A stretch of DNA of 21,008 bases from a virus (IMGVR_UViG_2671180458_000004); one strand, 5' to 3'; shown: positions 11,468-21,008, numbered from the stretch's first letter. The notes: generated by a model from the letters alone, not told the origin. Numbers and translations: made by a program.

Positions 11468-11893
11468 TCAGAAAAGTGGCGGTTGCGTTCTTGCCAGATG
11501 CAGACGGCGCTGTTCGCGTATGACGGTATAAATCTGGGTTTCTGACATCCGGTAATGGCGGCGAAGGGATTCAATTTTCTCGCCCCGGTCCCAGCGCGAA
11601 AATATCTCATTGTTTCGCAGCTCGGCAAAGAGAGATTCCCCGACCGGCAGGTAATAACCCCGTCCGCCCATATAGGCTGCCTGAGCCGCAGCCACCTTGC
11701 GTGCCAGTTTACCGGCCAGTACCGGCTCAATCCCCTGACGCTGAAGTTCTGCGCCAGTGACTTCAACCAGTTCTGACAGGGTCCGCGGCCAGTTCTTTTT
11801 GAGAACATCATCAGGGATGTCATCAAGGCGGTCGATAAGGGCGTGCAGTTGCTCACTGTCACCACCAAACATGCTCATCTGAGTTTCTGCCAT
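11468..11893 (-). CDS. mor: Mor/C-family transcriptional activator (middle/late gene activator)
   Basis: 141 aa, the size of Mu Mor (129 aa) and C (140 aa); GGAGG about 6 nt upstream; located between gemA and lys. Confidence 0.85.
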   Translation of the reverse strand: MAETQMSMFGGDSEQLHALIDRLDDIPDDVLKKNWPRTLSELVEVTGAELQRQGIEPVLAGKLARKVAAAQAAYMGGRGYYLPVGESLFAELRNNEIFSRWDRGEKIESLRRHYRMSETQIYTVIREQRRLHLARTQPPLF

Positions 11894-11925
11894 ATCAGCC
11901 TCCGGTTCTCGCGTTCCCGGTAAGT

Positions 11926-11958
11926 TTAAAATAAAAATCCCGCGTTGTGGCGGGATTT
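11926..11958 (-). terminator. Rho-independent terminator/attenuator between gemA and mor
   Basis: Perfect 9-bp stem AAATCCCGC/GCGGGATTT (11935-11943 with 11950-11958) around a 6-nt loop; on the minus strand it is followed by TTTTATTTT; begins 4 nt after the gemA stop. Confidence 0.7.
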
Positions 11959-11962
11959 GGGG

Positions 11963-12472
11963 TTAACGGGGAAGTGATTTTTCATACTGCCTGCAAACGG
12001 CGTCATACCCCATCAGCGTGCGTTCGGGCATTCCCATCGCGGCCAGCATTTTGCGGCGGTGCCATCGCTTGAGACGCTCCAGCACATCTGAGGCCAGGGC
12101 GGGGTGTTGCTCCAGCCACTGCCAGTTTGCCACACCTTCGCCGCCGTTTTGCGCGGCCGTCTGCGATTTCACCCAGCGGTTAAGGGCGGTTTCCGCACCA
12201 TCAGAGATAAAGCCCTGCCGGTGCATCACCTTCCAGATGGCGCGAATTTTAGCGGTCACCGTACCCGGTTTTAAGGCCCGGTTAACCGGGTTCTGACGCA
12301 CTTTAAAACCGCGTTTTTTGAAAACATCCAGCACGCGGGACAACTCATCCGGTGACATATCCCGGCAGCTGGTTTTGCCGGTGGCTGCCAGCAGCACGAA
12401 TGTATAAGTCTCATCATCCAGGGCAAGCTCGCGCTTTGCCACATGAATGGCGGATATCAGTTTTCCTCTCAT
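11963..12472 (-). CDS. gemA: GemA-family protein (Mu gp16-like, DUF1018)
   Basis: 169 aa; N-terminal MRGKLISAIHVAKRELALDDETY pattern recalled as typical of Mu GemA homologs; sits just upstream of mor as in Mu. Confidence 0.8.
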   Translation of the reverse strand: MRGKLISAIHVAKRELALDDETYTFVLLAATGKTSCRDMSPDELSRVLDVFKKRGFKVRQNPVNRALKPGTVTAKIRAIWKVMHRQGFISDGAETALNRWVKSQTAAQNGGEGVANWQWLEQHPALASDVLERLKRWHRRKMLAAMGMPERTLMGYDAVCRQYEKSLPR

Positions 12473-12765
12473 ACCGTATTTACCTTTTTACGGACATGGA
12501 AAGCCTTTTCTGCCTCATCCCACCGGGCATGGTGTGTTGGCGGAATAATCATTATGTGCCAGCCATCTCTGGTTGTTATCCGGCAGAAAAATTCACCGCT
12601 ATATAACACAATGGCCTGCTGAATGAGCGCATCAGCCGCCCGTTCAACCGGATATCTTTTATCAAAAAAGCAGATGATTTTTCGACATAACCACCGGGTA
12701 ATAACAAATGCACCGAAAAAGGATGTGATATATAAGCACCAGAACAACAGAGAACTATTGTCCAT
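12469..12765 (-). CDS. Hypothetical protein with N-terminal transmembrane helix (98 aa)
   Basis: AAGGAGAAAG RBS; hydrophobic N-terminus LLFWCLYITSFFGAFVITRWL; ATGA coupling into gemA. Confidence 0.6.
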   Translation of the reverse strand: MDNSSLLFWCLYITSFFGAFVITRWLCRKIICFFDKRYPVERAADALIQQAIVLYSGEFFCRITTRDGWHIMIIPPTHHARWDEAEKAFHVRKKVNTV

Positions 12766-12952
12766 TATCTTTCTCCTTATTCACTCTTCTTCGGCATTCG
12801 GCACAGTCATCAGGGCTTTCAAATGTATCCGGCTCGCGATTATGAGCCAGATATAACCACCGTCCACATATACTGATATTTTCGCCTGTTTTAAAAAAAT
12901 GATGCTTCCTGGCCATTAGTGGCCGCGCCCATCCAGCGGGTAGACTATTCAT
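12755..12952 (-). CDS. Hypothetical small protein (65 aa) with Cys/His residues
   Basis: GGAGGATAAAGCAA RBS; overlaps both neighbouring genes by a few nt; C-x(6)-H-x(12)-C-x2-C pattern could bind a metal (speculative). Confidence 0.55.
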   Translation of the reverse strand: MNSLPAGWARPLMARKHHFFKTGENISICGRWLYLAHNREPDTFESPDDCAECRRRVNKEKDNGQ

Positions 12953-13280
12953 TTGCTTTATCCTCCATGCTGGACAGAATCATATGTATTAATGTCGGGC
13001 GTGGAGATATACGCATTTCATTAAGCGTCTGAAGGGCAGCAACAGCTGCCTGTTTATCGGTGCCTTTGGCTATCTCTGCAAGAGAATGCACAATCCATAA
13101 CGGACTTAACGCCACGGCTGAATCCAGAATCATGTCATCCATAATAATTTCTGGCATATCCCGCTTGTCACATTCTTTATCTATAAAAGAAACGATTTTT
13201 TCTGCATCTTCCGGTTTCATGCCTCCGGCGATGAGAATTTTACGATATTCATAAGGCGATCTTAATTCAATACTCATCAT
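12945..13280 (-). CDS. Hypothetical acidic protein (111 aa)
   Basis: GGTGA-type RBS immediately upstream of ATGATG; lies in the low-GC stretch. Confidence 0.6.
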   Translation of the reverse strand: MMSIELRSPYEYRKILIAGGMKPEDAEKIVSFIDKECDKRDMPEIIMDDMILDSAVALSPLWIVHSLAEIAKGTDKQAAVAALQTLNEMRISPRPTLIHMILSSMEDKANE

Positions 13281-13292
13281 TCACCTGCCTGT

Positions 13293-13661
13293 TTAATCAG
13301 TTTCCAGTGCTTTGCTACGGGCAACAGCCTCACACTCAAAAAATACCGACTCCGGCACACGCTCCTTTAATTCACGAACAAGAAAATCATTAACGAGCTC
13401 ATGACGTCTTATATTTCTTTCCTTTTCCTCCTGGCGCAATACAGCAAGGCGGTATTCAACAGTCCGGCGTTGTTTCTGAAAGACAGCCAGTGCTTTTCTG
13501 GCAGAGTTACGCCATGTATCATCGCCACAGGGTTCGTATTCAAGCTGAAATTTAATCTCTTCAATGGTTTCTTTTATTTTTGCCAGCAAGCTAAGACAGT
13601 CGCTGATTGTCTTCAGTTTTTCATTATCAATATAACTTCTCACGCATTCACCTCCCGTCAT
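13293..13661 (-). CDS. Hypothetical protein, probably coiled-coil (about 122 aa)
   Basis: ORF 13293..13685 begins at a GTG; the ATG at 13661 forms an ATGA overlap with the upstream stop and is preferred. Heptad-like charged pattern in the C-terminal half. Confidence 0.55.
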   Translation of the reverse strand: MTGGECVRSYIDNEKLKTISDCLSLLAKIKETIEEIKFQLEYEPCGDDTWRNSARKALAVFQKQRRTVEYRLAVLRQEEKERNIRRHELVNDFLVRELKERVPESVFFECEAVARSKALETD

Positions 13662-13969
13662 TCCGGTAAAGCTGAAATATGACACCAGTGCGTCACCTGT
13701 CCGTCCTCATCTTCAAGGCAGGCTCCGGTTTCTTCATCAACAAAAAAGCCTTCATACCCCATATGGCCGATGCGCAGTTCCTGCCTGTGACCATACTGAA
13801 CAATCAGCACGACAGCCTCCATATCAGGCGGGAAAGCATCATTCAGTGAATGCCAGGGATAACCGCGCAAATCCCCGAAATAAACACCGGTCAGCGTTCC
13901 GCCACAGACCGGCATTCCGGCGGCACACACAAGAGGTTCATCTGATTCAACAAATAAGGTGGTTATCAT
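13658..13969 (-). CDS. Hypothetical strongly acidic protein (103 aa)
   Basis: ATGA-coupled start; many more acidic than basic residues by manual count; C-terminal EDEDGQVTHWCHISALPE. Confidence 0.6.
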   Translation of the reverse strand: MITTLFVESDEPLVCAAGMPVCGGTLTGVYFGDLRGYPWHSLNDAFPPDMEAVVLIVQYGHRQELRIGHMGYEGFFVDEETGACLEDEDGQVTHWCHISALPE

Positions 13970-14193
13970 GATGCCATTTGCTCCTGTATTTTCTGGCGTA
14001 AGTTTTCAATTTCTGCCGCCATATAAAAACCAATTTTGCTCCAGACATCAGCATCATCACCATGTTCTTCCAGCTCCATTACCGCCATTAAACACGCATC
14101 CTGCCAGTCACTGCTGTTATCAGTTACCGCCACTGAAAATGATGTACTGTCATGTCTGTTAATTATGACGACTGGCTTTTCAATTTTTCTCAT
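13966..14193 (-). CDS. Hypothetical small acidic protein (75 aa)
   Basis: GGGAGG about 6 nt upstream; ATGA coupling to the next gene; rich in Asp/Glu. Confidence 0.6.
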   Translation of the reverse strand: MRKIEKPVVIINRHDSTSFSVAVTDNSSDWQDACLMAVMELEEHGDDADVWSKIGFYMAAEIENLRQKIQEQMAS

Positions 14194-14375
14194 TTATGCC
14201 TCCCGGAAATACGAATGTATATACCGATGAGAAAATCCATAATAAACAGGAAGAGCGACATCCTGATAAAGAACCAAATGTCAGGCATCATGGACAGGTT
14301 TCCTGTAATCGCAAATATAAAACCAATCCCCAACACCGGAACGATAATTGCGAAAAATATAAGTCGTTTAATCAT
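14190..14375 (-). CDS. Small predicted membrane protein (61 aa, two hydrophobic helices)
   Basis: Sequence is almost entirely two hydrophobic stretches separated by a short polar loop; ATGA overlap with the upstream stop. Confidence 0.6.
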   Translation of the reverse strand: MIKRLIFFAIIVPVLGIGFIFAITGNLSMMPDIWFFIRMSLFLFIMDFLIGIYIRISGRHK

Positions 14376-14923
14376 GGCATTAACTCCCGTAATACAACAT
14401 CCTCGGCAGTCCGGCGATGGTGATAAATAAAATTCACCGTACTCTCGGATAATTCAAATTTCTCGCCTATTTCCCGGAAGGTAAGACGTCGTGGTGATTC
14501 AGCATCCCGTAATTCACGAATAAGATGAACATCATCGTCAGGTATACGGGTGAAGGGCAGCAATTCTCCGTATTTTTTCATGCTTACGCCAATATATCGC
14601 GCCCGATTGTGGACAGAATCCCGGTCTCGCCCCAGATATTCTCCTATTTGCTTACCGGTCATCGTTCTGGCATTTTTTCGGATAAATTTATCTTCATCAT
14701 GTTTAAATCTTGGACGTTTGCATTTGAGCAACTCCGGGTAAGTACCGCGTAATAAAACAATCCGGTTATGTACACCCCAGAAACTTCTTTTTACCCTGAC
14801 AGCAATATCCTTAACCGGGGTGGATGGATAAAGCGCAATCAGCAGTGCATCTTCTTCAGGTGTCCACGCACGGACATGAGCGGGTGCACGGCCTTTTCGC
14901 CCCATGGGTTGTAAAATCATCAT
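14372..14923 (-). CDS. Putative DNA-binding protein with several HTH-like segments (183 aa)
   Basis: AGGGGGTGA RBS; Myb/SANT-like WTPEEDALLIALY near the N-terminus, a central TGKQIGEYLGRDRDSVHNRARYIGV and a C-terminal LTFREIGEKFELSESTVNFIY segment. Confidence 0.65.
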   Translation of the reverse strand: MMILQPMGRKGRAPAHVRAWTPEEDALLIALYPSTPVKDIAVRVKRSFWGVHNRIVLLRGTYPELLKCKRPRFKHDEDKFIRKNARTMTGKQIGEYLGRDRDSVHNRARYIGVSMKKYGELLPFTRIPDDDVHLIRELRDAESPRRLTFREIGEKFELSESTVNFIYHHRRTAEDVVLRELMP

Positions 14924-14926
14924 ACA

Positions 14927-15442
14927 TCACCCCCTGACTCGCTTTTCAGCAGCATAAAACTCATCAGACAGAATTTCGGTCATTTTCCGTTTTGCGGAAT
15001 CATCTTCGCACTGAAGGTAAATAACATCGTCAACGCAGAACCACTTCACGGGACCATGCAATATTGCTGAAAAGTCAATGCCCAGCCAGAACAACAGGGC
15101 ATCGGTTCTGGCATACGTGACGGGCGAATATTCACGCCACAGACTGTTAAGTTCGTCAGAGGCAACGCGCAGGGCTTTGGGAATACGTGATGTGCGCGGT
15201 GTGCAGCTCCAGCCATTCGACGCAGTCGGTTTTCGCCATAAGTCGCGATGAAAAGGATATTTGTCATCCATAAAGCGCAGCCCTTTAAAACAAAAGCCAC
15301 TGATACCGGATACAAATACCGACCGGCACGCAACATTCAGCACGGCCTCAAGGCGTTTTGCCTCATCCTTAACTTTCTGGCAGTCCTGCTGATATTTTTT
15401 CCACGCGGCCAGCGCGGAAGGGTTTGATGTTTTAAAGAACAT
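14927..15442 (-). CDS. Hypothetical protein (171 aa)
   Basis: Translationally coupled to the upstream gene (TAATG); no recognisable motif. Confidence 0.65.
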   Translation of the reverse strand: MFFKTSNPSALAAWKKYQQDCQKVKDEAKRLEAVLNVACRSVFVSGISGFCFKGLRFMDDKYPFHRDLWRKPTASNGWSCTPRTSRIPKALRVASDELNSLWREYSPVTYARTDALLFWLGIDFSAILHGPVKWFCVDDVIYLQCEDDSAKRKMTEILSDEFYAAEKRVRG

Positions 15443-15975
15443 TACGCCACCTCCGCAGATATCCCGGCAGGCGCGGCCGTCCGGTCAACAATCAGGTAAC
15501 GCAGAACACGCGCGGTGATATTCCAGCCGCTTAAACCGCAGATGATGACACCCAGGCGTATGTCGATATACGCCATCACAAACTGGGGCACGCCTTCTTT
15601 CATGGCCTGCTCATCAACTTCAGCCACCACATAAACGGTTTCGCAGGTCAGTACGCCCTGAGCAAATTCCCACGCCATCGACGGAATATCATGCCCCTCA
15701 ATCCACGGCAGGGACTTTCTGAAGCTGCACCACTGAACATCATCAGCCGCACATTCCTGGCTGCATTTGCGACGAACCGGCTGCACCGGGCGGGGACGCG
15801 GAATATCATAAAAACCGTTACATTCCGTCAGCACCCCGGCATCAACCGCATCACGCAGAAAATAAACCATCGAGGATGGCGGCATATTCATTTTTTCAGC
15901 CAGAACACCGCAGGTCAGACGTCCGTAAATACGCAGCCAGTTTTTAACCCCTTCAAGCACTTTTGCATCAATCAT
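15442..15975 (-). CDS. Hypothetical protein (177 aa), possible N-terminal winged-helix-like segment
   Basis: GGAGG about 8 nt upstream; stop and next start overlap as TAATG; the helix-turn-helix impression is by eye only. Confidence 0.65.
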   Translation of the reverse strand: MIDAKVLEGVKNWLRIYGRLTCGVLAEKMNMPPSSMVYFLRDAVDAGVLTECNGFYDIPRPRPVQPVRRKCSQECAADDVQWCSFRKSLPWIEGHDIPSMAWEFAQGVLTCETVYVVAEVDEQAMKEGVPQFVMAYIDIRLGVIICGLSGWNITARVLRYLIVDRTAAPAGISAEVA

Positions 15976-15978
15976 GAA

Positions 15979-16521
15979 TTATTCCTCCGTCAGCGCCACA
16001 TATTCAGAATGTTTAATTTCCTGGCATTCTTCAGGAATACACCCGTTTATTTCCCTGCCATAAGCGCCTACTTTAAACACCACGCACAGGGCATCACGGG
16101 AGAGTGACGGGGTCCACCAGGAGTCCGTGTTAAACATGGAGGGGATTCTCATTACCCCCAGCTTTTCACAGAGCCAGACAAGGAAATCAGGACGCTTTCT
16201 TAACTCGCGTTCAGCGGCTTCAACCATTGCGGCAATCGCCGGACCTTCAGGGCATGACTCATCAGGTCTGGCAATAAAGCACGGTCCGCCCCCGATAAAA
16301 GCCACATCATCGCGCTTACGCCAGCCCGCAGGCAGAGAACCAGAAAAATAAAACTCACTGATTACGTCCATGGCGAACGGCTTTAAGCGCAATCCGGCAG
16401 CGCCTGTATTTTTCAGTAATGCCCGAAGAATACTGTTGCGTAGCGGTAAAACAGTCTGTTGATATTTGGTGAAATATTTATTTGTCTGTACACGGTCTAA
16501 TTTGAAATAAAAATATGCCAT
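15979..16521 (-). CDS. Hypothetical protein (180 aa), accessory block
   Basis: AAGGAACAGGA RBS; first gene after the 97-bp gap downstream of gam; no family recognised. Confidence 0.65.
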   Translation of the reverse strand: MAYFYFKLDRVQTNKYFTKYQQTVLPLRNSILRALLKNTGAAGLRLKPFAMDVISEFYFSGSLPAGWRKRDDVAFIGGGPCFIARPDESCPEGPAIAAMVEAAERELRKRPDFLVWLCEKLGVMRIPSMFNTDSWWTPSLSRDALCVVFKVGAYGREINGCIPEECQEIKHSEYVALTEE

Positions 16522-16618
16522 ATTTCCTGTTCCTTATTTTCAGTTTACAGGCGCAGGCAGTCCCCTGACGCGAGCGCCATAATTAAAACGAAGTGATATT
16601 TAAAGATTTAATGCGGTG

Positions 16619-17149
16619 TTATTTATTCAGTCCGGCGTCCTGTTCAAAAGGCTCGACATGAAAACTTTCAGCACCTTTATTCACCTTAATACCAGCAACC
16701 CCTTTCACCGCATCCGGCTCCGCCAGGACAGCTTGCTTATTCACTTCCTCTTTCGTGCGGATGAAGCGCTCAAGCCCCATACGACGCAGCATTTCAATCA
16801 CACCTTCCACATCACGACTGACGCTGCATGATGGATTTCCCAGCCGCCATGACACCGTTCCGGTGGTCAGATTGGCAGTTTTGGTTTCGCCGCCGTTCGT
16901 CAGCTCATTGCGGTTGGTTTTACACCAGTCATGAATCCCCTTAAAAAGCACTTTGATTTCTTTTTTAAGGTTTTCAATCTGCGGCGTATAACGGGCGGTG
17001 ATTTCTGCCACTTCATCATTCATTGCCGTTTCCAGGCGCAGCGCCTCTCGCTGAATATCGCCCAGGGTGCGGATATCGCGGCTGACCTCTTCACGGGTCT
17101 GCGGTGCCGCCTCTGCTGCGGCCTTTAATTTTGTAACGCGTTTTGCCAT
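16619..17149 (-). CDS. gam: Host-nuclease inhibitor Gam (Mu Gam family, Ku-like DNA end-binding protein)
   Basis: 176 aa, the size of Mu Gam; sequence recalled as Gam family; AAGGAAAAA RBS upstream of the ATG. Confidence 0.85.
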   Translation of the reverse strand: MAKRVTKLKAAAEAAPQTREEVSRDIRTLGDIQREALRLETAMNDEVAEITARYTPQIENLKKEIKVLFKGIHDWCKTNRNELTNGGETKTANLTTGTVSWRLGNPSCSVSRDVEGVIEMLRRMGLERFIRTKEEVNKQAVLAEPDAVKGVAGIKVNKGAESFHVEPFEQDAGLNK

Positions 17150-17160
17150 TTTGTTTTTCC

Positions 17161-17454
17161 TTATTGCAATGTATCTGGTCCGTTCTGAACAGAACGGCGT
17201 TCAACGGAGCTGCTTACCCCCATGGCCTGCATGGAACCCTGTAGTTCATCTGTCAGAAACTGAATGATTGTGGGGCTGTGATATTTAAGAATTTGTGCAT
17301 AAACATCACAGGGTCCTGCCGGTCTGTTCTCTGTATCACGTTCGATTTTTACCGTGGCAGTAACCCCCTCCGTGATTTCCTTACTATCATTACCGGCTGG
17401 CTTTACTTCATGCATTACGTGGTCAAATTCAAAAATAACGCGTACTTTGCTCAT
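17161..17454 (-). CDS. Hypothetical early protein (about 97 aa), paralog of the adjacent gene
   Basis: Start moved to the second ATG (17454): it aligns with the paralog's N-terminus, has AGGGG about 8 nt upstream and avoids a 23-nt overlap. Confidence 0.6.
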   Translation of the reverse strand: MSKVRVIFEFDHVMHEVKPAGNDSKEITEGVTATVKIERDTENRPAGPCDVYAQILKYHSPTIIQFLTDELQGSMQAMGVSSSVERRSVQNGPDTLQ

Positions 17455-17458
17455 GGAA

Positions 17459-17731
17459 TTACCCCTGTTGATTAAATTCATTACCGTTAATAACCCCGGA
17501 ACTCATGTCCATATCTTTCATGAGCGCACTGGCTTTCATTGCCACAAGTTCAGCAAAGTCTCTGCTTTCCGCGAGCATAACCACCCCAAAAATCATGGCG
17601 GGTCCATCACCTTTCTGCTTTATCCCGGTTGAACGTATGTCCAGACTTACCCCCATGCGCACTGTTCCATCAGCGTTTTTATGGATAACGTGCTCCTTGT
17701 ATTCGAAAATAATGCGTACGACTTTACTCAT
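17459..17731 (-). CDS. Hypothetical early protein (90 aa), paralog of the adjacent gene
   Basis: N-terminus MSKVVRIIFEYKEHVIHK resembles MSKVRVIFEFDHVMHEVK of the 17161..17454 product; C-terminal MKDMDMSSGV versus MQAMGVSSSV. Confidence 0.6.
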   Translation of the reverse strand: MSKVVRIIFEYKEHVIHKNADGTVRMGVSLDIRSTGIKQKGDGPAMIFGVVMLAESRDFAELVAMKASALMKDMDMSSGVINGNEFNQQG

Positions 17732-18009
17732 CCTCTGGTCCTCGTTCTGTTTGGATAACTGACCCGGCGTCTGACCTCACGGCAGAACCGAATCATGGCA
17801 TTAAAGGCTTCTTCCTCCGTCACCGCTTCCGGTATCCCCGGAACCAGTAACTGCTCCTGTTCATCACGTCCATGACGCGCCATAACCTCAATCACATGCC
17901 GTACTGTGGCAGGCTTTCCGGCAACTATCGGCAATGCACCTTCCGGCAGGACGTAACCCAGTTCAATGAGACCGCTCGACCACGCCCACGCAATTAGATT
18001 TCGTTTCAC
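17728..18009 (-). CDS. Hypothetical early protein (93 aa), GTG start
   Basis: GTG at 18009 preceded by GGGAGGAG; stop overlaps the next start (ATGA). Confidence 0.55.
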   Translation of the reverse strand: MKRNLIAWAWSSGLIELGYVLPEGALPIVAGKPATVRHVIEVMARHGRDEQEQLLVPGIPEAVTEEEAFNAMIRFCREVRRRVSYPNRTRTRG

Positions 18010-18010
18010 C

Positions 18011-18265
18011 TCACTCCTCCCAGTAAACCGTGCAGCCGCTGATGCGGGTAGCCTTCACACGGCGGCGCAGGCCGTTGGTCTGTATGGTGATTTCAATTTC
18101 ACCGGTTCCCTTAACTTCGCTTACCGGCGGCGTGGTTTTCAGGGCATAACGTTGTGGGTAGCGTTTGCTGCGTTCCAGTACCGCACCGGCAAGTTCAGTC
18201 AGACGGCGTGCACTGTTCAGGGAGTCGAATAAATTCATTTTTTTACCGCAGGATTGCATATTCAT
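18011..18265 (-). CDS. Hypothetical early protein (about 84 aa)
   Basis: ORF 18011..18277; the internal ATG at 18265 is preferred because GAGGTG lies about 5 nt upstream; the stop is 1 nt before the next gene's start. Confidence 0.5.
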   Translation of the reverse strand: MNMQSCGKKMNLFDSLNSARRLTELAGAVLERSKRYPQRYALKTTPPVSEVKGTGEIEITIQTNGLRRRVKATRISGCTVYWEE

Positions 18266-18277
18266 ATAACACCTCAT

Positions 18278-19505: not shown

Positions 19506-21008
19506 TCAGGCCAGCGGGTCATTTTCTTTTAATTTCGCTTCCAGCAACTGCAATCCCCGCTGGAAATTACGCTCGTATTCTTCATCAGGCTCATCATCAA
19601 CGGCAGGTTGCTGAACGGCCACCGTATTACCTACCGGGCGATAGATGTTTTCCAGCCAGGGCTCCTGCGGCTTGTGCTCCAGCACGTTGACAACCTCATC
19701 CTCGGCATCACGGATTTTTTCCTCTGCGCGTTTACGCATGCCTTTAAGGCGTTGCTGCTGTTTGTAGTATTCCGCGCTAACCGGGAAGGCTTCGCGTTTA
19801 TTACCGTCCCATACCGCCTCGCAAATCACGCTGCCATCCAGGCGACGTACGGTAATTCGTTCGGCATCATGAATGTCATAGCTGATAAGCACCTTGCGGC
19901 CATGCTCATCACGCAGCTCGGGCGCGTAGTAAATATTATTCAGCCAGCGTATTTCACAGCGTCTTACAGGGCGTTCCACCATCGGCCGGAACATGTCCCG
20001 CAATTCCACATCGGACAGCCATTCAATTTCCGTGTCCTCTTCCGCCAGGCATTTTTTTCTGAACTCCGCCGGGCTGTAATGTTTACCGTTCGGCTTCATC
20101 GGTAATTCATCGTGCGGTCGGTTGTTGTACCACTCAACACCATCACGAATGGCATCAATCAGTTCAGACCAGGACGGTAAATCACGCATCGCTGACTGTT
20201 GCCGGGCGTTCAGCCGTTTGCCCTGTTGCAGGGCGGTAAATGCCGAGCGTAAATCGCGGTTGGTTTTGCGTAACGTCTCGCGATCTGCACCTTTCCCGAA
20301 ATAGGTGCGGTATTTACGGGCTATGCGCATCGGTAATGTGCGGTTAAGCCGTTCGATAATGCCTCGTCCCTGCGGATTACCGGCAATCCCGGTCGGGTGA
20401 TTAATCCCCAGTCGCGGCAGTATCCCCACAACCTCCTTATCCAGGATGTCGGCGGTTTCCCCGGAGCCGTTATCCGAGTAATACAGAAACGGTTTGCCGT
20501 GATGGCGAATGCCGTGCTGTATGGCACCGGCTACGGCGAAAACATTTTCAGCCAGGTCAAGGCTCCAGCCCACCACAAAGCGCGTGCCACCGTCGATAAC
20601 AAAGGTCACTTCCGGTGCAAATGGCCGACCGTGAACCGGGTGTGCGCATTTCAGCTTCATGCCGTGACCGTCACCAATCCAGACATAATTCACCGGCATT
20701 TTTGACCAGTCGCGGCGCGTGAATCCCTCAAGCTGGCGGTATTCACTGCCGGTCACCCGGCCTTTTTGTTTCACCACTTCCGGCAGTTTCTTCATTGCGC
20801 GGCGAATGGTGTCATAAGACGGCATGATATCGAGCATATAAGGCTCATCAGCGTGCCGGTGCTGCCATTCAGCGACAAAATCCTCGTAAGCCTCGGTCAT
20901 TGGTCGGCCGTTTGACTGGCGATACTGCGCCAGAAATTCGGGCAGCCAGTTAATATCTTCGGCTTTTATTTCCTGGCGCTTACCCGGTGCCAGTAAAAGC
21001 AGGCGTTC
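19506..21008 (-). CDS. A: Mu-type DDE transposase A, C-terminal portion (N-terminus lies beyond the window edge)
   Basis: 464-aa ORF 19506..20900; the same frame stays open with no stop from 20901 to 21008, so the listed Met is internal. Position immediately upstream of B. Family assignment from recalled similarity to MuA. Confidence 0.9.
   Translation of the reverse strand, partial: ERLLLLAPGKRQEIKAEDINWLPEFLAQYRQSNGRPMTEAYEDFVAEWQHRHADEPYMLDIMPSYDTIRRAMKKLPEVVKQKGRVTGSEYRQLEGFTRRDWSKMPVNYVWIGDGHGMKLKCAHPVHGRPFAPEVTFVIDGGTRFVVGWSLDLAENVFAVAGAIQHGIRHHGKPFLYYSDNGSGETADILDKEVVGILPRLGINHPTGIAGNPQGRGIIERLNRTLPMRIARKYRTYFGKGADRETLRKTNRDLRSAFTALQQGKRLNARQQSAMRDLPSWSELIDAIRDGVEWYNNRPHDELPMKPNGKHYSPAEFRKKCLAEEDTEIEWLSDVELRDMFRPMVERPVRRCEIRWLNNIYYAPELRDEHGRKVLISYDIHDAERITVRRLDGSVICEAVWDGNKREAFPVSAEYYKQQQRLKGMRKRAEEKIRDAEDEVVNVLEHKPQEPWLENIYRPVGNTVAVQQPAVDDEPDEEYERNFQRGLQLLEAKLKENDPLA

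What the first reader, a model, noticed from the sequence alone, without database searches (positions are those of the whole stretch)
12469..16521. Expanded 11-gene accessory block between gam and gemA
Mu has only a handful of small genes in this slot; here eleven tightly coupled ORFs (61-183 aa) fill about 4 kb and I recognise none of them as a Mu gene. The early region of transposable phages is a known home for host-takeover and anti-defence genes, so this is the most likely place for an undescribed function. It includes a multi-HTH protein, small membrane proteins and several acidic proteins.
Basis: partly seen in the sequence, partly recalled or inferred. Interest (0 to 1): 0.75.

Follow-up and report, generated by a model that had tools for sequence, protein, structure and literature searches.

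The report
Variable early-gene block of Mu-like prophage
Between the gam and gemA genes of an E. coli Mu-like (Sp18-type) prophage sit eleven real, tightly packed small genes of unknown function; part of the block is shared with phage Mu and part is swapped between close relatives, so it is a reasonable but unproven place to look for host-takeover or counter-defence genes.

Summary
Eleven minus-strand ORFs fill 12469-16521 with 99.6% coverage, ribosome-binding sites, overlapping stops and starts, and pN/pS of 0.12-0.41 where it could be measured reliably (9 of 11).

The claim that none is a Mu gene is wrong. o2 is Mu_11 (68% identity, Pfam Gp11_C) and o3 is Mu_12 (53%, PF26885). o1 is a divergent DUF5420 relative, and a profile comparison (E 1.5e-5) plus matching AlphaFold topology show it is a remote homologue of gp12.

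The element is the Sp18-type transposable prophage, found in 232 of 5426 complete E. coli genomes. Sakai Sp18 carries eight of these genes; this window adds o6, o7 and o8.

Across 75 related loci the gam-gemA slot runs from 1.1 to 5.2 kb and shows 34 architectures. o2-o3-o4 are stable within the lineage, while o1 and o5-o11 come and go at gene boundaries.

The block is AT-rich (GC 0.47 against 0.57 in the late region) and lies inside the early operon, which ends at a terminator just after gemA.

No ORF matches a known defence, anti-defence, toxin or enzyme family, and the o1 and gp12 models match no solved fold.

Verdict: a genuine accessory early region and an expanded member of a known kind. 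The anti-defence idea is plausible but untested.

The parts
16619..17149 (-). Left anchor: Gam (host-nuclease inhibitor), 176 aa.
   Evidence: Pfam Phage_Mu_Gam E 2.6e-39; 55% identity to Mu Gam.
16522..16618 (-). 97-nt intergenic gap between gam and o1, the only sizeable gap in the region. Mu has a gap of the same size (98 nt) between gam and Mu_11.
   Evidence: Sequence. No promoter-like or terminator-like site was found there. It aligns with Mu at about 69% identity as far as 16540.
15979..16521 (-). o1, 180 aa: a divergent member of the DUF5420 (PF17457) superfamily and a remote homologue of Mu gp12. Present in 42 of 75 related loci.
15442..15975 (-). o2, 177 aa: orthologue of Mu_11 (gp11). 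Possible N-terminal winged-HTH, a Pro/Arg-rich linker, and the Gp11_C domain.
   Evidence: 68% identity to Mu_11. Pfam PF25754 Gp11_C E 4.6e-40, and a weak HTH_20 hit (E 0.093). phrog_1949. pN/pS 0.13.
14927..15442 (-). o3, 171 aa: orthologue of Mu_12 (gp12), Pfam PF26885.
14372..14923 (-). o4, 183 aa, pI 10: DNA-binding protein with three HTH/SANT-Myb-like modules. Invariant in the Sp18 lineage and absent from Mu.
   Evidence: phrog_323 'transcriptional regulator, D5-like' E 1.9e-58, plus three separate sub-hits. Sub-threshold Pfam HTH/Myb hits. RefSeq names it AsnC family, SANT/Myb-like or DNA-binding protein. Internal repeat pattern. Present in 39 of 75 loci.
14190..14375 (-). o5, 61 aa, pI 10.9: small protein with two hydrophobic, transmembrane-like segments. 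Variable cassette; equals ECs_5772 in Sakai Sp18.
   Evidence: Hydropathy. Weak phrog_19804 hit. Present in 16 of 75 loci. pN/pS 0.21. No homologue outside Mu-like elements.
13966..14193 (-). o6, 75 aa, pI 4.5: rare cassette gene.
   Evidence: Found in 3 of 75 loci and in 3 of 5426 complete E. coli genomes. No PHROG, Pfam or NCBIfam hit. 43-54% identical homologues on 172 plasmid records, as the N-terminal part of longer ORFs. ATGA overlaps on both sides.
13658..13969 (-). o7, 103 aa, pI 4.3: acidic protein, variable cassette.
   Evidence: phrog_6925 E 1.1e-51. Present in 17 of 75 loci. pN/pS 0.13. In the phage collection it occurs only in Sp18-type elements.
13293..13643 (-). o8, 116 aa (GTG start at 13643; the 130-aa reading from 13685 is less likely). 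Variable cassette.
   Evidence: phrog_6158 E 1.8e-57, with the match starting at residue 15 of the long form. RefSeq start. Present in 16 of 75 loci. About 40% identical homologues in Escherichia phages Fraca, SaltyDalty and Fostie and in Aeromonas phage AsXd-1.
12945..13280 (-). o9, 110-111 aa, pI 4.9: the most widespread of the variable genes.
   Evidence: phrog_1988 E 1.6e-43. Present in 49 of 75 loci, in two or three copies in some, and also in phages whose Gam is 99-100% identical to Mu's. 35% identical homologues in SfMu and in Yersinia Mu-like phages.
12755..12952 (-). o10, 65 aa, three Cys (motif H-x-F ... CG-x-W ... C-x-x-C).
   Evidence: phrog_2358 E 4.7e-34. Present in 22 of 75 loci, always with o11. 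Homologues in 197 phage records, 167 of them Pseudomonas phages. pN/pS 0.12.
12469..12765 (-). o11, 98 aa, with an N-terminal hydrophobic (membrane-anchor-like) segment.
   Evidence: Hydropathy. phrog_17269 E 2.4e-33. Present in 23 of 75 loci. Its stop overlaps the gemA start by 4 nt.
11963..12472 (-). Right anchor: GemA (gp16 family), 169 aa.
   Evidence: Pfam GemA E 1.2e-29; 43% identity to Mu GemA.
11935..11958 (-). Intrinsic-terminator-like hairpin (9-bp stem, 5 GC pairs, T-run) directly after gemA. Probable end of the early transcript that contains the block.

Best explanation
The block is the flexible middle of the early operon of an Sp18-type Mu-like transposable prophage of E. coli. 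This operon corresponds to the region that Mu genetics calls semi-essential early.

It has two parts. The left module is o1-o4: a DUF5420-like protein, the Mu gp11 orthologue with a probable winged-HTH, the Mu gp12 orthologue (itself a remote paralogue of o1), and a basic triple-HTH protein. o2-o4 are fixed within the lineage. They most likely act on DNA or nucleoprotein targets early in lytic growth.

The right module is o5-o11: small, AT-rich genes that can be swapped independently. Two are membrane proteins, three are acidic, one is Cys-rich and one has no distinguishing feature. They are gained and lost at gene junctions.

Because the genes are translationally coupled within one operon that ends at the terminator after gemA, all eleven would be made immediately after infection or induction. 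In a lysogen they would be silent.

I infer that the right-hand genes are individually dispensable modifiers of the host, serving host takeover, exclusion of competing phages, or neutralisation of host defences.

What is shown: the gene reality, the orthology, the paralogy, the operon layout and the variability. What is inferred: the timing of expression and every biochemical role.
For: - Gene reality.
- Flanking gam and gemA.
- Mu orthology of o2 and o3.
- o1 in the DUF5420 superfamily.
- o1 and gp12 as remote homologues: hhalign E 1.5e-5 over the full length, against E 0.05-0.9 for 11 control families, and the same order of secondary-structure elements in confident AF2 models.
- o4 as a multi-HTH protein.
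- Variability: 34 architectures in 75 loci, with o2-o3-o4 constant in the Sp18 lineage. Sakai Sp18 has 8 of the 11 genes.
- Breakpoints at gene boundaries with microhomology.
- Block GC 0.466 against 0.569 in the late region, and 0.38-0.46 for o4-o6 and o8-o11.
- Operon layout: same strand and coupled starts. Promoter-like sites in the scanned interval are not above chance (5 found, 8.6 expected), and the only strong terminator-like site (9-pair stem with a T-run) is at 11958-11935, after gemA.
- Some cassette genes have homologues in unrelated phages and phage-like plasmids, as expected for mobile accessory genes: o6, o8, o10.
- The element is an active transposable phage: it has inserted into Stx phages with a target duplication, occurs in up to 4 copies per genome, and is described as capable of transposition in PMC7430833.
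- Dispensability of the Mu region between B and C is established Mu genetics, recalled from my own knowledge and not checked here.
Against: - No ORF matches any characterised host-takeover, anti-restriction, anti-CRISPR or other counter-defence family, and none matches a defence family.
- The o1 and gp12 models have no informative fold match.
- Variability alone does not show a role in conflict with the host.
- o2-o4 are invariant in the lineage and may serve the phage's own replication or regulation.
- Expression timing was not measured. Weak internal promoters cannot be excluded by a consensus scan.
- The panel of relatives was gathered with gp11 as bait, so the frequency of gp11 is biased. 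IMG/VR contigs also include many near-duplicates.
Confidence: 0.6

Rival explanations
1. Core phage function. The block, or at least o1-o4, encodes accessory factors for the phage's own transposition-replication or early gene regulation, for example the poorly mapped Mu 'arm' function (amplified replication). On this reading it is not a set of host-directed effectors.
For: o2 and o3 are conserved from Mu to Sp18 at 53-68% identity under strong purifying selection (pN/pS 0.13 and 0.23). o2-o3-o4 are present in every Sp18-lineage locus examined. o2 and o4 carry DNA-binding-type modules. The block sits between gam and gemA, among replication and regulation genes.
Against: gp12 is absent from 22 of 75 gp11-containing loci and o4 from all Mu-type phages. 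Minimal slots such as 'gp11 + one small gene' (1.1 kb) exist. By established Mu genetics (my recollection), Mu deleted for this region still grows. This rival does not explain o5-o11, which vary between near-identical phages.
Confidence: 0.3
2. Lysogen-benefit genes. The small membrane and acidic proteins are expressed from the prophage and protect the lysogen, by superinfection exclusion or as a prophage-encoded defence. On this reading they do not serve lytic growth.
For: o5 and o11 are small membrane-type proteins, a common form for exclusion proteins (general knowledge). The cassettes are AT-rich and variable, like prophage morons. The prophage is widespread in STEC.
Against: All genes are co-oriented and translationally coupled inside the early lytic operon. 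Promoter-like sites are below the chance expectation (5 against 8.6) and there are no flanking terminators of the moron type. There is no PADLOC hit beyond one weak HTH-region match for o4.
Confidence: 0.1
3. Some of the eleven ORFs, especially o6 and the smallest ones, are not genes but chance or decaying reading frames.
For: o6 has no PHROG, Pfam or NCBIfam hit, and no variant sequences were available for a selection test. The pN/pS estimate for o9 was 0.92.
Against: ORF coverage is far above random. Every start has an RBS-like motif. pN/pS is 0.12-0.41 for nine families. o6 has 43-54% identical protein homologues on 172 plasmids. The o9 family occurs in 49 loci and in SfMu and Yersinia phages; its high ratio comes from ungapped comparison of strongly diverged members.
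Confidence: 0.04

Closest known systems
Phage Mu early region between gam and gemA (Mu_11, Mu_12, Mu_13, Mu_14, Mu_54 in AF083977), part of the semi-essential early region
   Same: Same position, strand and flanking genes. The gap after gam is the same size (97 against 98 nt). o2 is Mu_11 (68% identity) and o3 is Mu_12 (53% identity). All genes are of unknown function.
   Different: Mu has 5 genes in 1.7 kb and this window has 11 in 4.05 kb. Mu_13, Mu_14 and Mu_54 are absent here. o1 and o4-o11 are absent from Mu itself, although o1 and o9 occur in phages whose Gam is 99-100% identical to Mu's.
Prophage Sp18 of E. coli O157:H7 Sakai (ECs_4953-ECs_4959 plus ECs_5772)
   Same: Same phage lineage and the same order o1-o2-o3-o4-o5 ... 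o9-o10-o11 between gam (ECs_4952) and gemA (ECs_4960). All are annotated as hypothetical.
   Different: Sp18 lacks o6, o7 and o8 (window 13293-14193). Other O157 and STEC copies instead lack o5-o6 or o1. The full 11-gene order was found only in LC727881 and in the complete E. coli genome examined in full (NZ_AP042495, strain OkiPb01678). The rare o6 gene occurs in just three complete genomes, all bovine-faeces strains from Okinawa.
DUF5420 (PF17457) and Phage_Mu_Gp12 (PF26885) families
   Same: o1 is homologous to annotated DUF5420 proteins (E 1.7e-22) and o3 is a PF26885 member. Both occur next to gp11 in Mu-like prophages of E. coli, Salmonella and Citrobacter.
   Different: o1 itself scores below Pfam detection for PF17457. 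The link between the two families (hhalign E 1.5e-5, shared topology) is not reflected in the annotation seen here. Neither family has a known function or a solved structure.
Variable accessory gene regions of other phages, such as the early regions and anti-CRISPR loci of Pseudomonas Mu-like phages and the lambdoid nin region (general knowledge, not tested here)
   Same: Runs of small, co-oriented, AT-rich genes that can be swapped independently and differ between near-identical phages. Some members are shared with unrelated phages.
   Different: No sequence or profile similarity was found to any characterised member of such regions, and no functional data exist. Here the cassettes are embedded in, and translationally coupled to, the main early operon.

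Membership tests
Mu semi-essential early region (gam-gemA segment) | Lies between gam and gemA homologues on the same strand as the transposase genes A and B. | tested here: met
   Pfam Phage_Mu_Gam, GemA, Mu-transpos_C; MuB homologue at 49% identity; all on the minus strand.
Mu semi-essential early region (gam-gemA segment) | Contains orthologues of the Mu genes that occupy this slot. | tested here: met
   Met in part. Mu_11 and Mu_12 orthologues are present at 68% and 53% identity. Mu_13, Mu_14 and Mu_54 were not found at E 1e-2.
Mu semi-essential early region (gam-gemA segment) | Transcribed as part of the early transcript. | tested here: inconclusive
   Coupled starts, promoter-like sites not above chance, and a terminator-like hairpin only after gemA. 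No expression data.
Mu semi-essential early region (gam-gemA segment) | Dispensable for plaque formation. | not testable with these tools
   Needs deletion mutants. Natural variants lacking o1, o5-o6 or o6-o8 exist, which is indirect support for those genes only.
DUF5420 (PF17457), for o1 | Scores above the Pfam gathering threshold for PF17457. | tested here: not met
   No Pfam hit at E <= 0.1 (again, member 1).
DUF5420 (PF17457), for o1 | Significant full-length homology to proteins that do belong to PF17457. | tested here: met
   P0014 at 36% identity, E 1.7e-22, 100% coverage. A profile of o1 and its relatives retrieves about 100 PF17457 proteins at E <= 1e-53. 91 of 124 superfamily representatives hit PF17457 and no other family.
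Phage_Mu_Gp12 (PF26885), for o3 | Homology to Mu_12 and membership of PF26885. | tested here: met
   53% identity to Mu_12 over 168 aa. All 46 homologues found carry PF26885. The local Pfam copy lacks this model, so o3 itself had no hit.
Gp11 (PF25754 Gp11_C), for o2 | Gp11_C domain above the gathering threshold. | tested here: met
   136.3 bits against a cut-off of 27, covering the full profile 1-78.
Known anti-defence or host-takeover proteins | Sequence or profile similarity to a characterised member. | tested here: not met
   No such PHROG category, Pfam or NCBIfam hit for any of the 11 ORFs. No dedicated anti-defence library was available.
Known anti-defence or host-takeover proteins | Gene content varies between closely related phages at a fixed locus. 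| tested here: met
   34 architectures in 75 loci, with variants among copies that are 96-98% identical at the nucleotide level.
Known anti-defence or host-takeover proteins | Demonstrated inhibition of a host defence system or of a host process. | not testable with these tools
   Requires experiments.
Anti-phage defence systems (PADLOC) | Match to a defence-system protein model. | tested here: not met
   Only one weak hit, o4 to a homing-endonuclease model (E 0.0085), which lies in its HTH region.

The most novel reading that the evidence does not exclude
At least one of the swappable early genes (o1 or o5-o11) is a new kind of inhibitor of a host defence or host process. In addition, the DUF5420/gp12 proteins, which have no match among solved structures, would form a phage-specific fold family that works beside Gam at the start of transposable-phage infection.
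Probability: 0.3. Interest if true: 0.6.

Novelty: new member of a known kind. Interest (0 to 1): 0.35.

Why it matters
The functions of the genes between gam and gemA have stayed unknown since Mu was sequenced. This work does not solve that, but it narrows the problem in four ways.

- It separates a lineage-stable module (gp11, gp12 and a triple-HTH protein) from a set of about seven independently swappable small genes.
- It shows that natural variants lacking defined cassettes already exist in sequenced STEC strains. These are ready-made comparison material.
- It links two families of unknown function (DUF5420 and Mu gp12) as remote homologues with a confident predicted structure that matches no solved fold.
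- It gives a short, concrete candidate list for counter-defence or host-takeover screens in a phage that is common in Shiga-toxin-producing E. coli and that transposes into Stx phages.

If none of these genes turns out to act on the host, the block is simply another stretch of phage dark matter.

Tried and rejected
- **Family libraries.** Pfam, PHROGs, NCBIfam and PADLOC scans of all 11 ORFs gave only Gp11_C for o2, HTH-type hits for o4, and PHROG families of unknown function.
- **PDB sequence searches.** Searches with o1-o4 as single sequences and with profiles for gp11, gp12 and DUF5420 found nothing meaningful.
- **o1-gp12 link from shallow alignments.** This was not significant (E 0.027; E 0.3), and a gp12 HMM found none of the 137 DUF5420-superfamily representatives. 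Only the diverse superfamily profile gave E 1.5e-5. I accept remote homology, but not as proven beyond doubt.
- **o7 and Gp11_C as DUF551-like.** I suspected this from a W..LP...VTHW motif, but neither Pfam nor hhalign supported it, so I dropped it.
- **o10 as DUF3039-like.** The resemblance is from memory only and has no tool support.
- **Non-coding features.** No Rfam family in the window. No meaningful repeats in the block. Promoter-like sites are not enriched.
- **Position in other loci.** Pfam scans of other genes found in this slot in relatives (L066, L055, L012) gave only DUF3164 and DUF5420.
- **Literature.** Searches for DUF5420, for the Mu semi-essential early region and for anti-defence in Mu found nothing on these genes.
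- **Species-level survey.** The single genome-contig scan returned one locus because the peptide patterns were too specific.

Full report
**What is in the sequence**

All genes in the window run on the minus strand. In phage order (right to left) they are:
- a Mu-type transposase, cut by the end of the window;
- a MuB homologue;
- five small early genes, including a Kil-like one;
- Gam (16619-17149);
- eleven ORFs filling 12469-16521;
- GemA (11963-12472);
- a Mor/C-family activator, then lysozyme.

I label the eleven ORFs o1-o11:

| ORF | Coordinates | Length (aa) |
|---|---|---|
| o1 | 15979-16521 | 180 |
| o2 | 15442-15975 | 177 |
| o3 | 14927-15442 | 171 |
| o4 | 14372-14923 | 183 |
| o5 | 14190-14375 | 61 |
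| o6 | 13966-14193 | 75 |
| o7 | 13658-13969 | 103 |
| o8 | 13293-13643 | 116 |
| o9 | 12945-13280 | 111 |
| o10 | 12755-12952 | 65 |
| o11 | 12469-12765 | 98 |

Neighbouring genes overlap by 1-11 nt or are separated by 3-15 nt. Each start is preceded by a GGAG/AGGA-type motif.

ORFs of at least 60 aa on this strand cover 99.6% of the block. In 300 Markov-random sequences of the same composition the figure is 27 +/- 11%, with a maximum of 58%.

Summed pN/pS against relatives is 0.12-0.41 for nine of the families. The value for o9 (0.92) comes from ungapped comparison of highly diverged members and is not reliable. o6 had no variant sequences to compare, but it has protein homologues elsewhere.

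The one correction is the start of o8: RefSeq and the PHROG match place it at the GTG at 13643.

**What the element is**

The block is 98% identical to a 'Mu-like phage' inserted in the Stx2c phage record LC727881, with an annotated target duplication.

The 5.3-kb stretch from gam to gemA (window 11900-17200) matches 232 of 5426 complete E. coli genomes, many of them O157:H7 and other STEC, with up to four copies per genome.

This is the lineage of prophage Sp18 of strain Sakai. In Sakai the slot reads ECs_4953-4956, ECs_5772, ECs_4957-4959, which is o1 o2 o3 o4 o5 o9 o10 o11. The literature describes Sp18-type prophages as transposition-competent (PMC7430833). The window therefore carries the Sp18 set plus o6, o7 and o8.

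**Comparison with Mu**

Mu (AF083977) has five genes in 1.7 kb between gam and gemA: Mu_11, Mu_12, Mu_13, Mu_14 and Mu_54.
- o2 is the Mu_11 orthologue: 68% identity, and the Pfam Gp11_C domain at 136 bits.
- o3 is the Mu_12 orthologue: 53% identity, and all of its homologues carry PF26885 Phage_Mu_Gp12.

The other nine have no Mu counterpart at E 1e-2.

**How the slot varies**

I used a gp11 alignment as bait in IMG/VR and added RefSeq loci. This gave 75 loci with both gam and gemA anchors.
- Slot length runs from 1.1 to 5.2 kb.
- Clustering the ORFs gave 14 recurring families and 34 different gene orders.
- The 11-gene order occurs in only three of these loci: the window, LC727881 and one bovine E. 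coli.
- The commonest order is the Sp18 one (11 loci).
- Within the Sp18 lineage o2-o3-o4 are always present. o1 is present, absent, or replaced by a canonical DUF5420 gene. o5, o6, o7 and o8 occur in various combinations. o9-o10-o11 are usually present but are replaced by Mu_13/Mu_14-type genes in some loci.
- o1 and o9 also occur in phages whose Gam is 99-100% identical to Mu's.
- Nucleotide alignments put the breakpoints at gene junctions: 14355/13970 for o5-o6, 14183/13292 for o6-o8, and 16504/15983 for o1. There is short microhomology around the overlapping stop and start codons.
- The block is AT-rich: GC 0.466 against 0.569 for the late region, and 0.38-0.46 for o4-o6 and o8-o11.

Some cassette genes have homologues outside Mu-like phages:
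- o6 on 172 mostly non-mobilizable plasmids of Salmonella and E. coli (the listed examples are about 105-120 kb), where it forms the N-terminal part of longer ORFs;
- o8 in a few small Escherichia and Aeromonas phages;
- o10 in 197 phage records, mainly Pseudomonas phages.

o5, o7, o9 and o11 were found only in enterobacterial Mu-like elements.

**What the proteins are**

- o4 is a basic protein (pI 10) with three HTH/SANT-Myb-like modules. It matches phrog_323 'transcriptional regulator, D5-like' and shows an internal repeat pattern. RefSeq names it AsnC family, SANT/Myb-like or DNA-binding protein.
- o2 has a weak N-terminal HTH_20 signal, a Pro/Arg-rich linker, and the Gp11_C domain.
- o5 has two hydrophobic segments and o11 has one at its N-terminus. 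o6, o7 and o9 are acidic.
- o10 has an H-x-F ... CG-x-W ... C-x-x-C motif.
- None of the eleven matches a family of known biochemical function, a PADLOC defence model, or a PDB sequence.

**o1 and gp12**

o1 is a diverged relative of DUF5420:
- a Salmonella protein annotated as DUF5420 matches it at 36% identity, E 1.7e-22;
- a profile built from o1 and its relatives retrieves about 100 PF17457 proteins;
- an exhaustive profile search finds 141 clusters at 50% identity;
- of 124 of these representatives scanned, 91 hit PF17457 and nothing else.

o1 and gp12 share a 'YFK / FFK' N-terminus and an 'EIKHSEY-A / EILSDEF-A' C-terminus.

Shallow profiles did not link the two families. The diverse superfamily profile aligned to the gp12 family over 151 columns with E 1.5e-5 and probability 79%. 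Eleven control families from the same slot gave E 0.05-0.9 on short stretches.

AlphaFold models of both proteins are confident (pLDDT 90.5 and 87.1). They show the same order of elements: a strand, a long helix or helix pair, a hairpin, two helices, a hairpin, a strand, and a C-terminal helix.

I conclude that o1 and o3 are remote paralogues flanking gp11. Salmonella Mu-like prophages carry two DUF5420-type genes in tandem before gp11 and gp12, so this family has expanded repeatedly in this slot.

**How it most likely works**

The genes are co-oriented and coupled. In the interval scanned, the number of promoter-like sites is not above chance. The only convincing terminator-like hairpin sits right after gemA at 11958-11935.

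The block is therefore best read as part of the early transcript, made immediately on infection or induction and silent in the lysogen. This is an inference, not a measurement.

The stable left module (o2, o3 and o4, with optional o1) combines DNA-binding-type proteins with the DUF5420/gp12 fold. It most likely acts on DNA or nucleoprotein targets, whether of the phage or of the host.

The right module (o5-o11) behaves as a set of independently exchangeable accessory genes. Its members' small size, membrane or acidic character, AT-richness, patchy distribution and partial sharing with unrelated phages fit host-directed early functions: takeover, exclusion or counter-defence. None of these is demonstrated.

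Rival readings:
- A role in the phage's own replication or regulation. This is most plausible for o2-o4.
- Lysogen-benefit genes. The operon layout argues against this.
- Non-genes. The coding evidence rejects this.

**Verdict**

The region is accessory and variable, but it is not wholly foreign to Mu, and there is no positive evidence for anti-defence.

It is an expanded member of a known kind of region (the Mu semi-essential early region and phage accessory-gene regions generally), already present and annotated as 'hypothetical' in hundreds of public genomes.

The modest new points are:
- the division of the slot into a stable and a swappable module;
- the catalogue of natural cassette variants;
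- the remote homology between DUF5420 and Mu gp12, with a confident structure prediction that matches no solved fold.

Noticed in passing
window 11935-11958 (-) and 11468-11893 (-): A strong intrinsic-terminator-like hairpin lies between gemA and the Mor-family gene. That Mor-family protein is closer to Mu C (39% identity) than to Mu Mor (27%), and lysozyme follows it directly. This phage may use a single Mor/C-type activator in place of Mu's separate middle and late steps.
   Followed up: no
window 13966-14193 (o6); L093, L094: o6 is very rare in Mu-like prophages: 3 of 5426 complete E. coli genomes, all bovine-faeces strains from Okinawa. It nevertheless has 43-54% identical homologues on 172 plasmid records, mostly non-mobilizable plasmids of Salmonella and E. 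coli (the listed examples are about 105-120 kb). These may be phage-plasmids. There it forms the N-terminal part of a longer ORF (about 100 aa in the one locus examined, L093) within a run of small hypothetical genes.
   Followed up: partly
window 12755-12952 (o10): This 65-aa Cys-containing protein has homologues in 197 phage records. Of these, 167 are Pseudomonas phages, mostly of about 64-67 kb, and some are virulent E. coli phages. All are annotated as hypothetical.
   Followed up: no
window 17728-18009 (-) and 18011-18277 (-): Upstream of gam, a 93-aa ORF matches phrog_1518, labelled 'host nuclease inhibitor' (annotated the same way in Sakai as ECs_4949). An 88-aa ORF matches Kil-type septation inhibitors. 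The stretch from B to gam is thus a second run of small early genes.
   Followed up: no
L095-L098 (Salmonella Mu-like prophages); L012 (Citrobacter braakii): Two DUF5420-superfamily genes sit in tandem before gp11. In some of these prophages a DUF3164 protein occupies the position of Gam.
   Followed up: partly
L005 6241-7380; L011 1500-2423: Some E. coli copies of the prophage are interrupted by insertion sequences: ISEc22 just upstream of the gam region and IS903B after the o7-like gene. Not all copies are therefore intact.
   Followed up: no
LC727881 and LC727895 (L002); plasmid AP026747.1: The Mu-like element has transposed into Stx1a- and Stx2c-converting prophages, with an annotated target duplication in LC727881. 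Part of the block also lies on a 112-kb E. coli plasmid.
   Followed up: no
window 19506-21008 (-): The transposase reading frame continues without a stop to the end of the window. The gene is cut by the window and is not truncated in the genome; relatives encode about 696 aa.
   Followed up: yes
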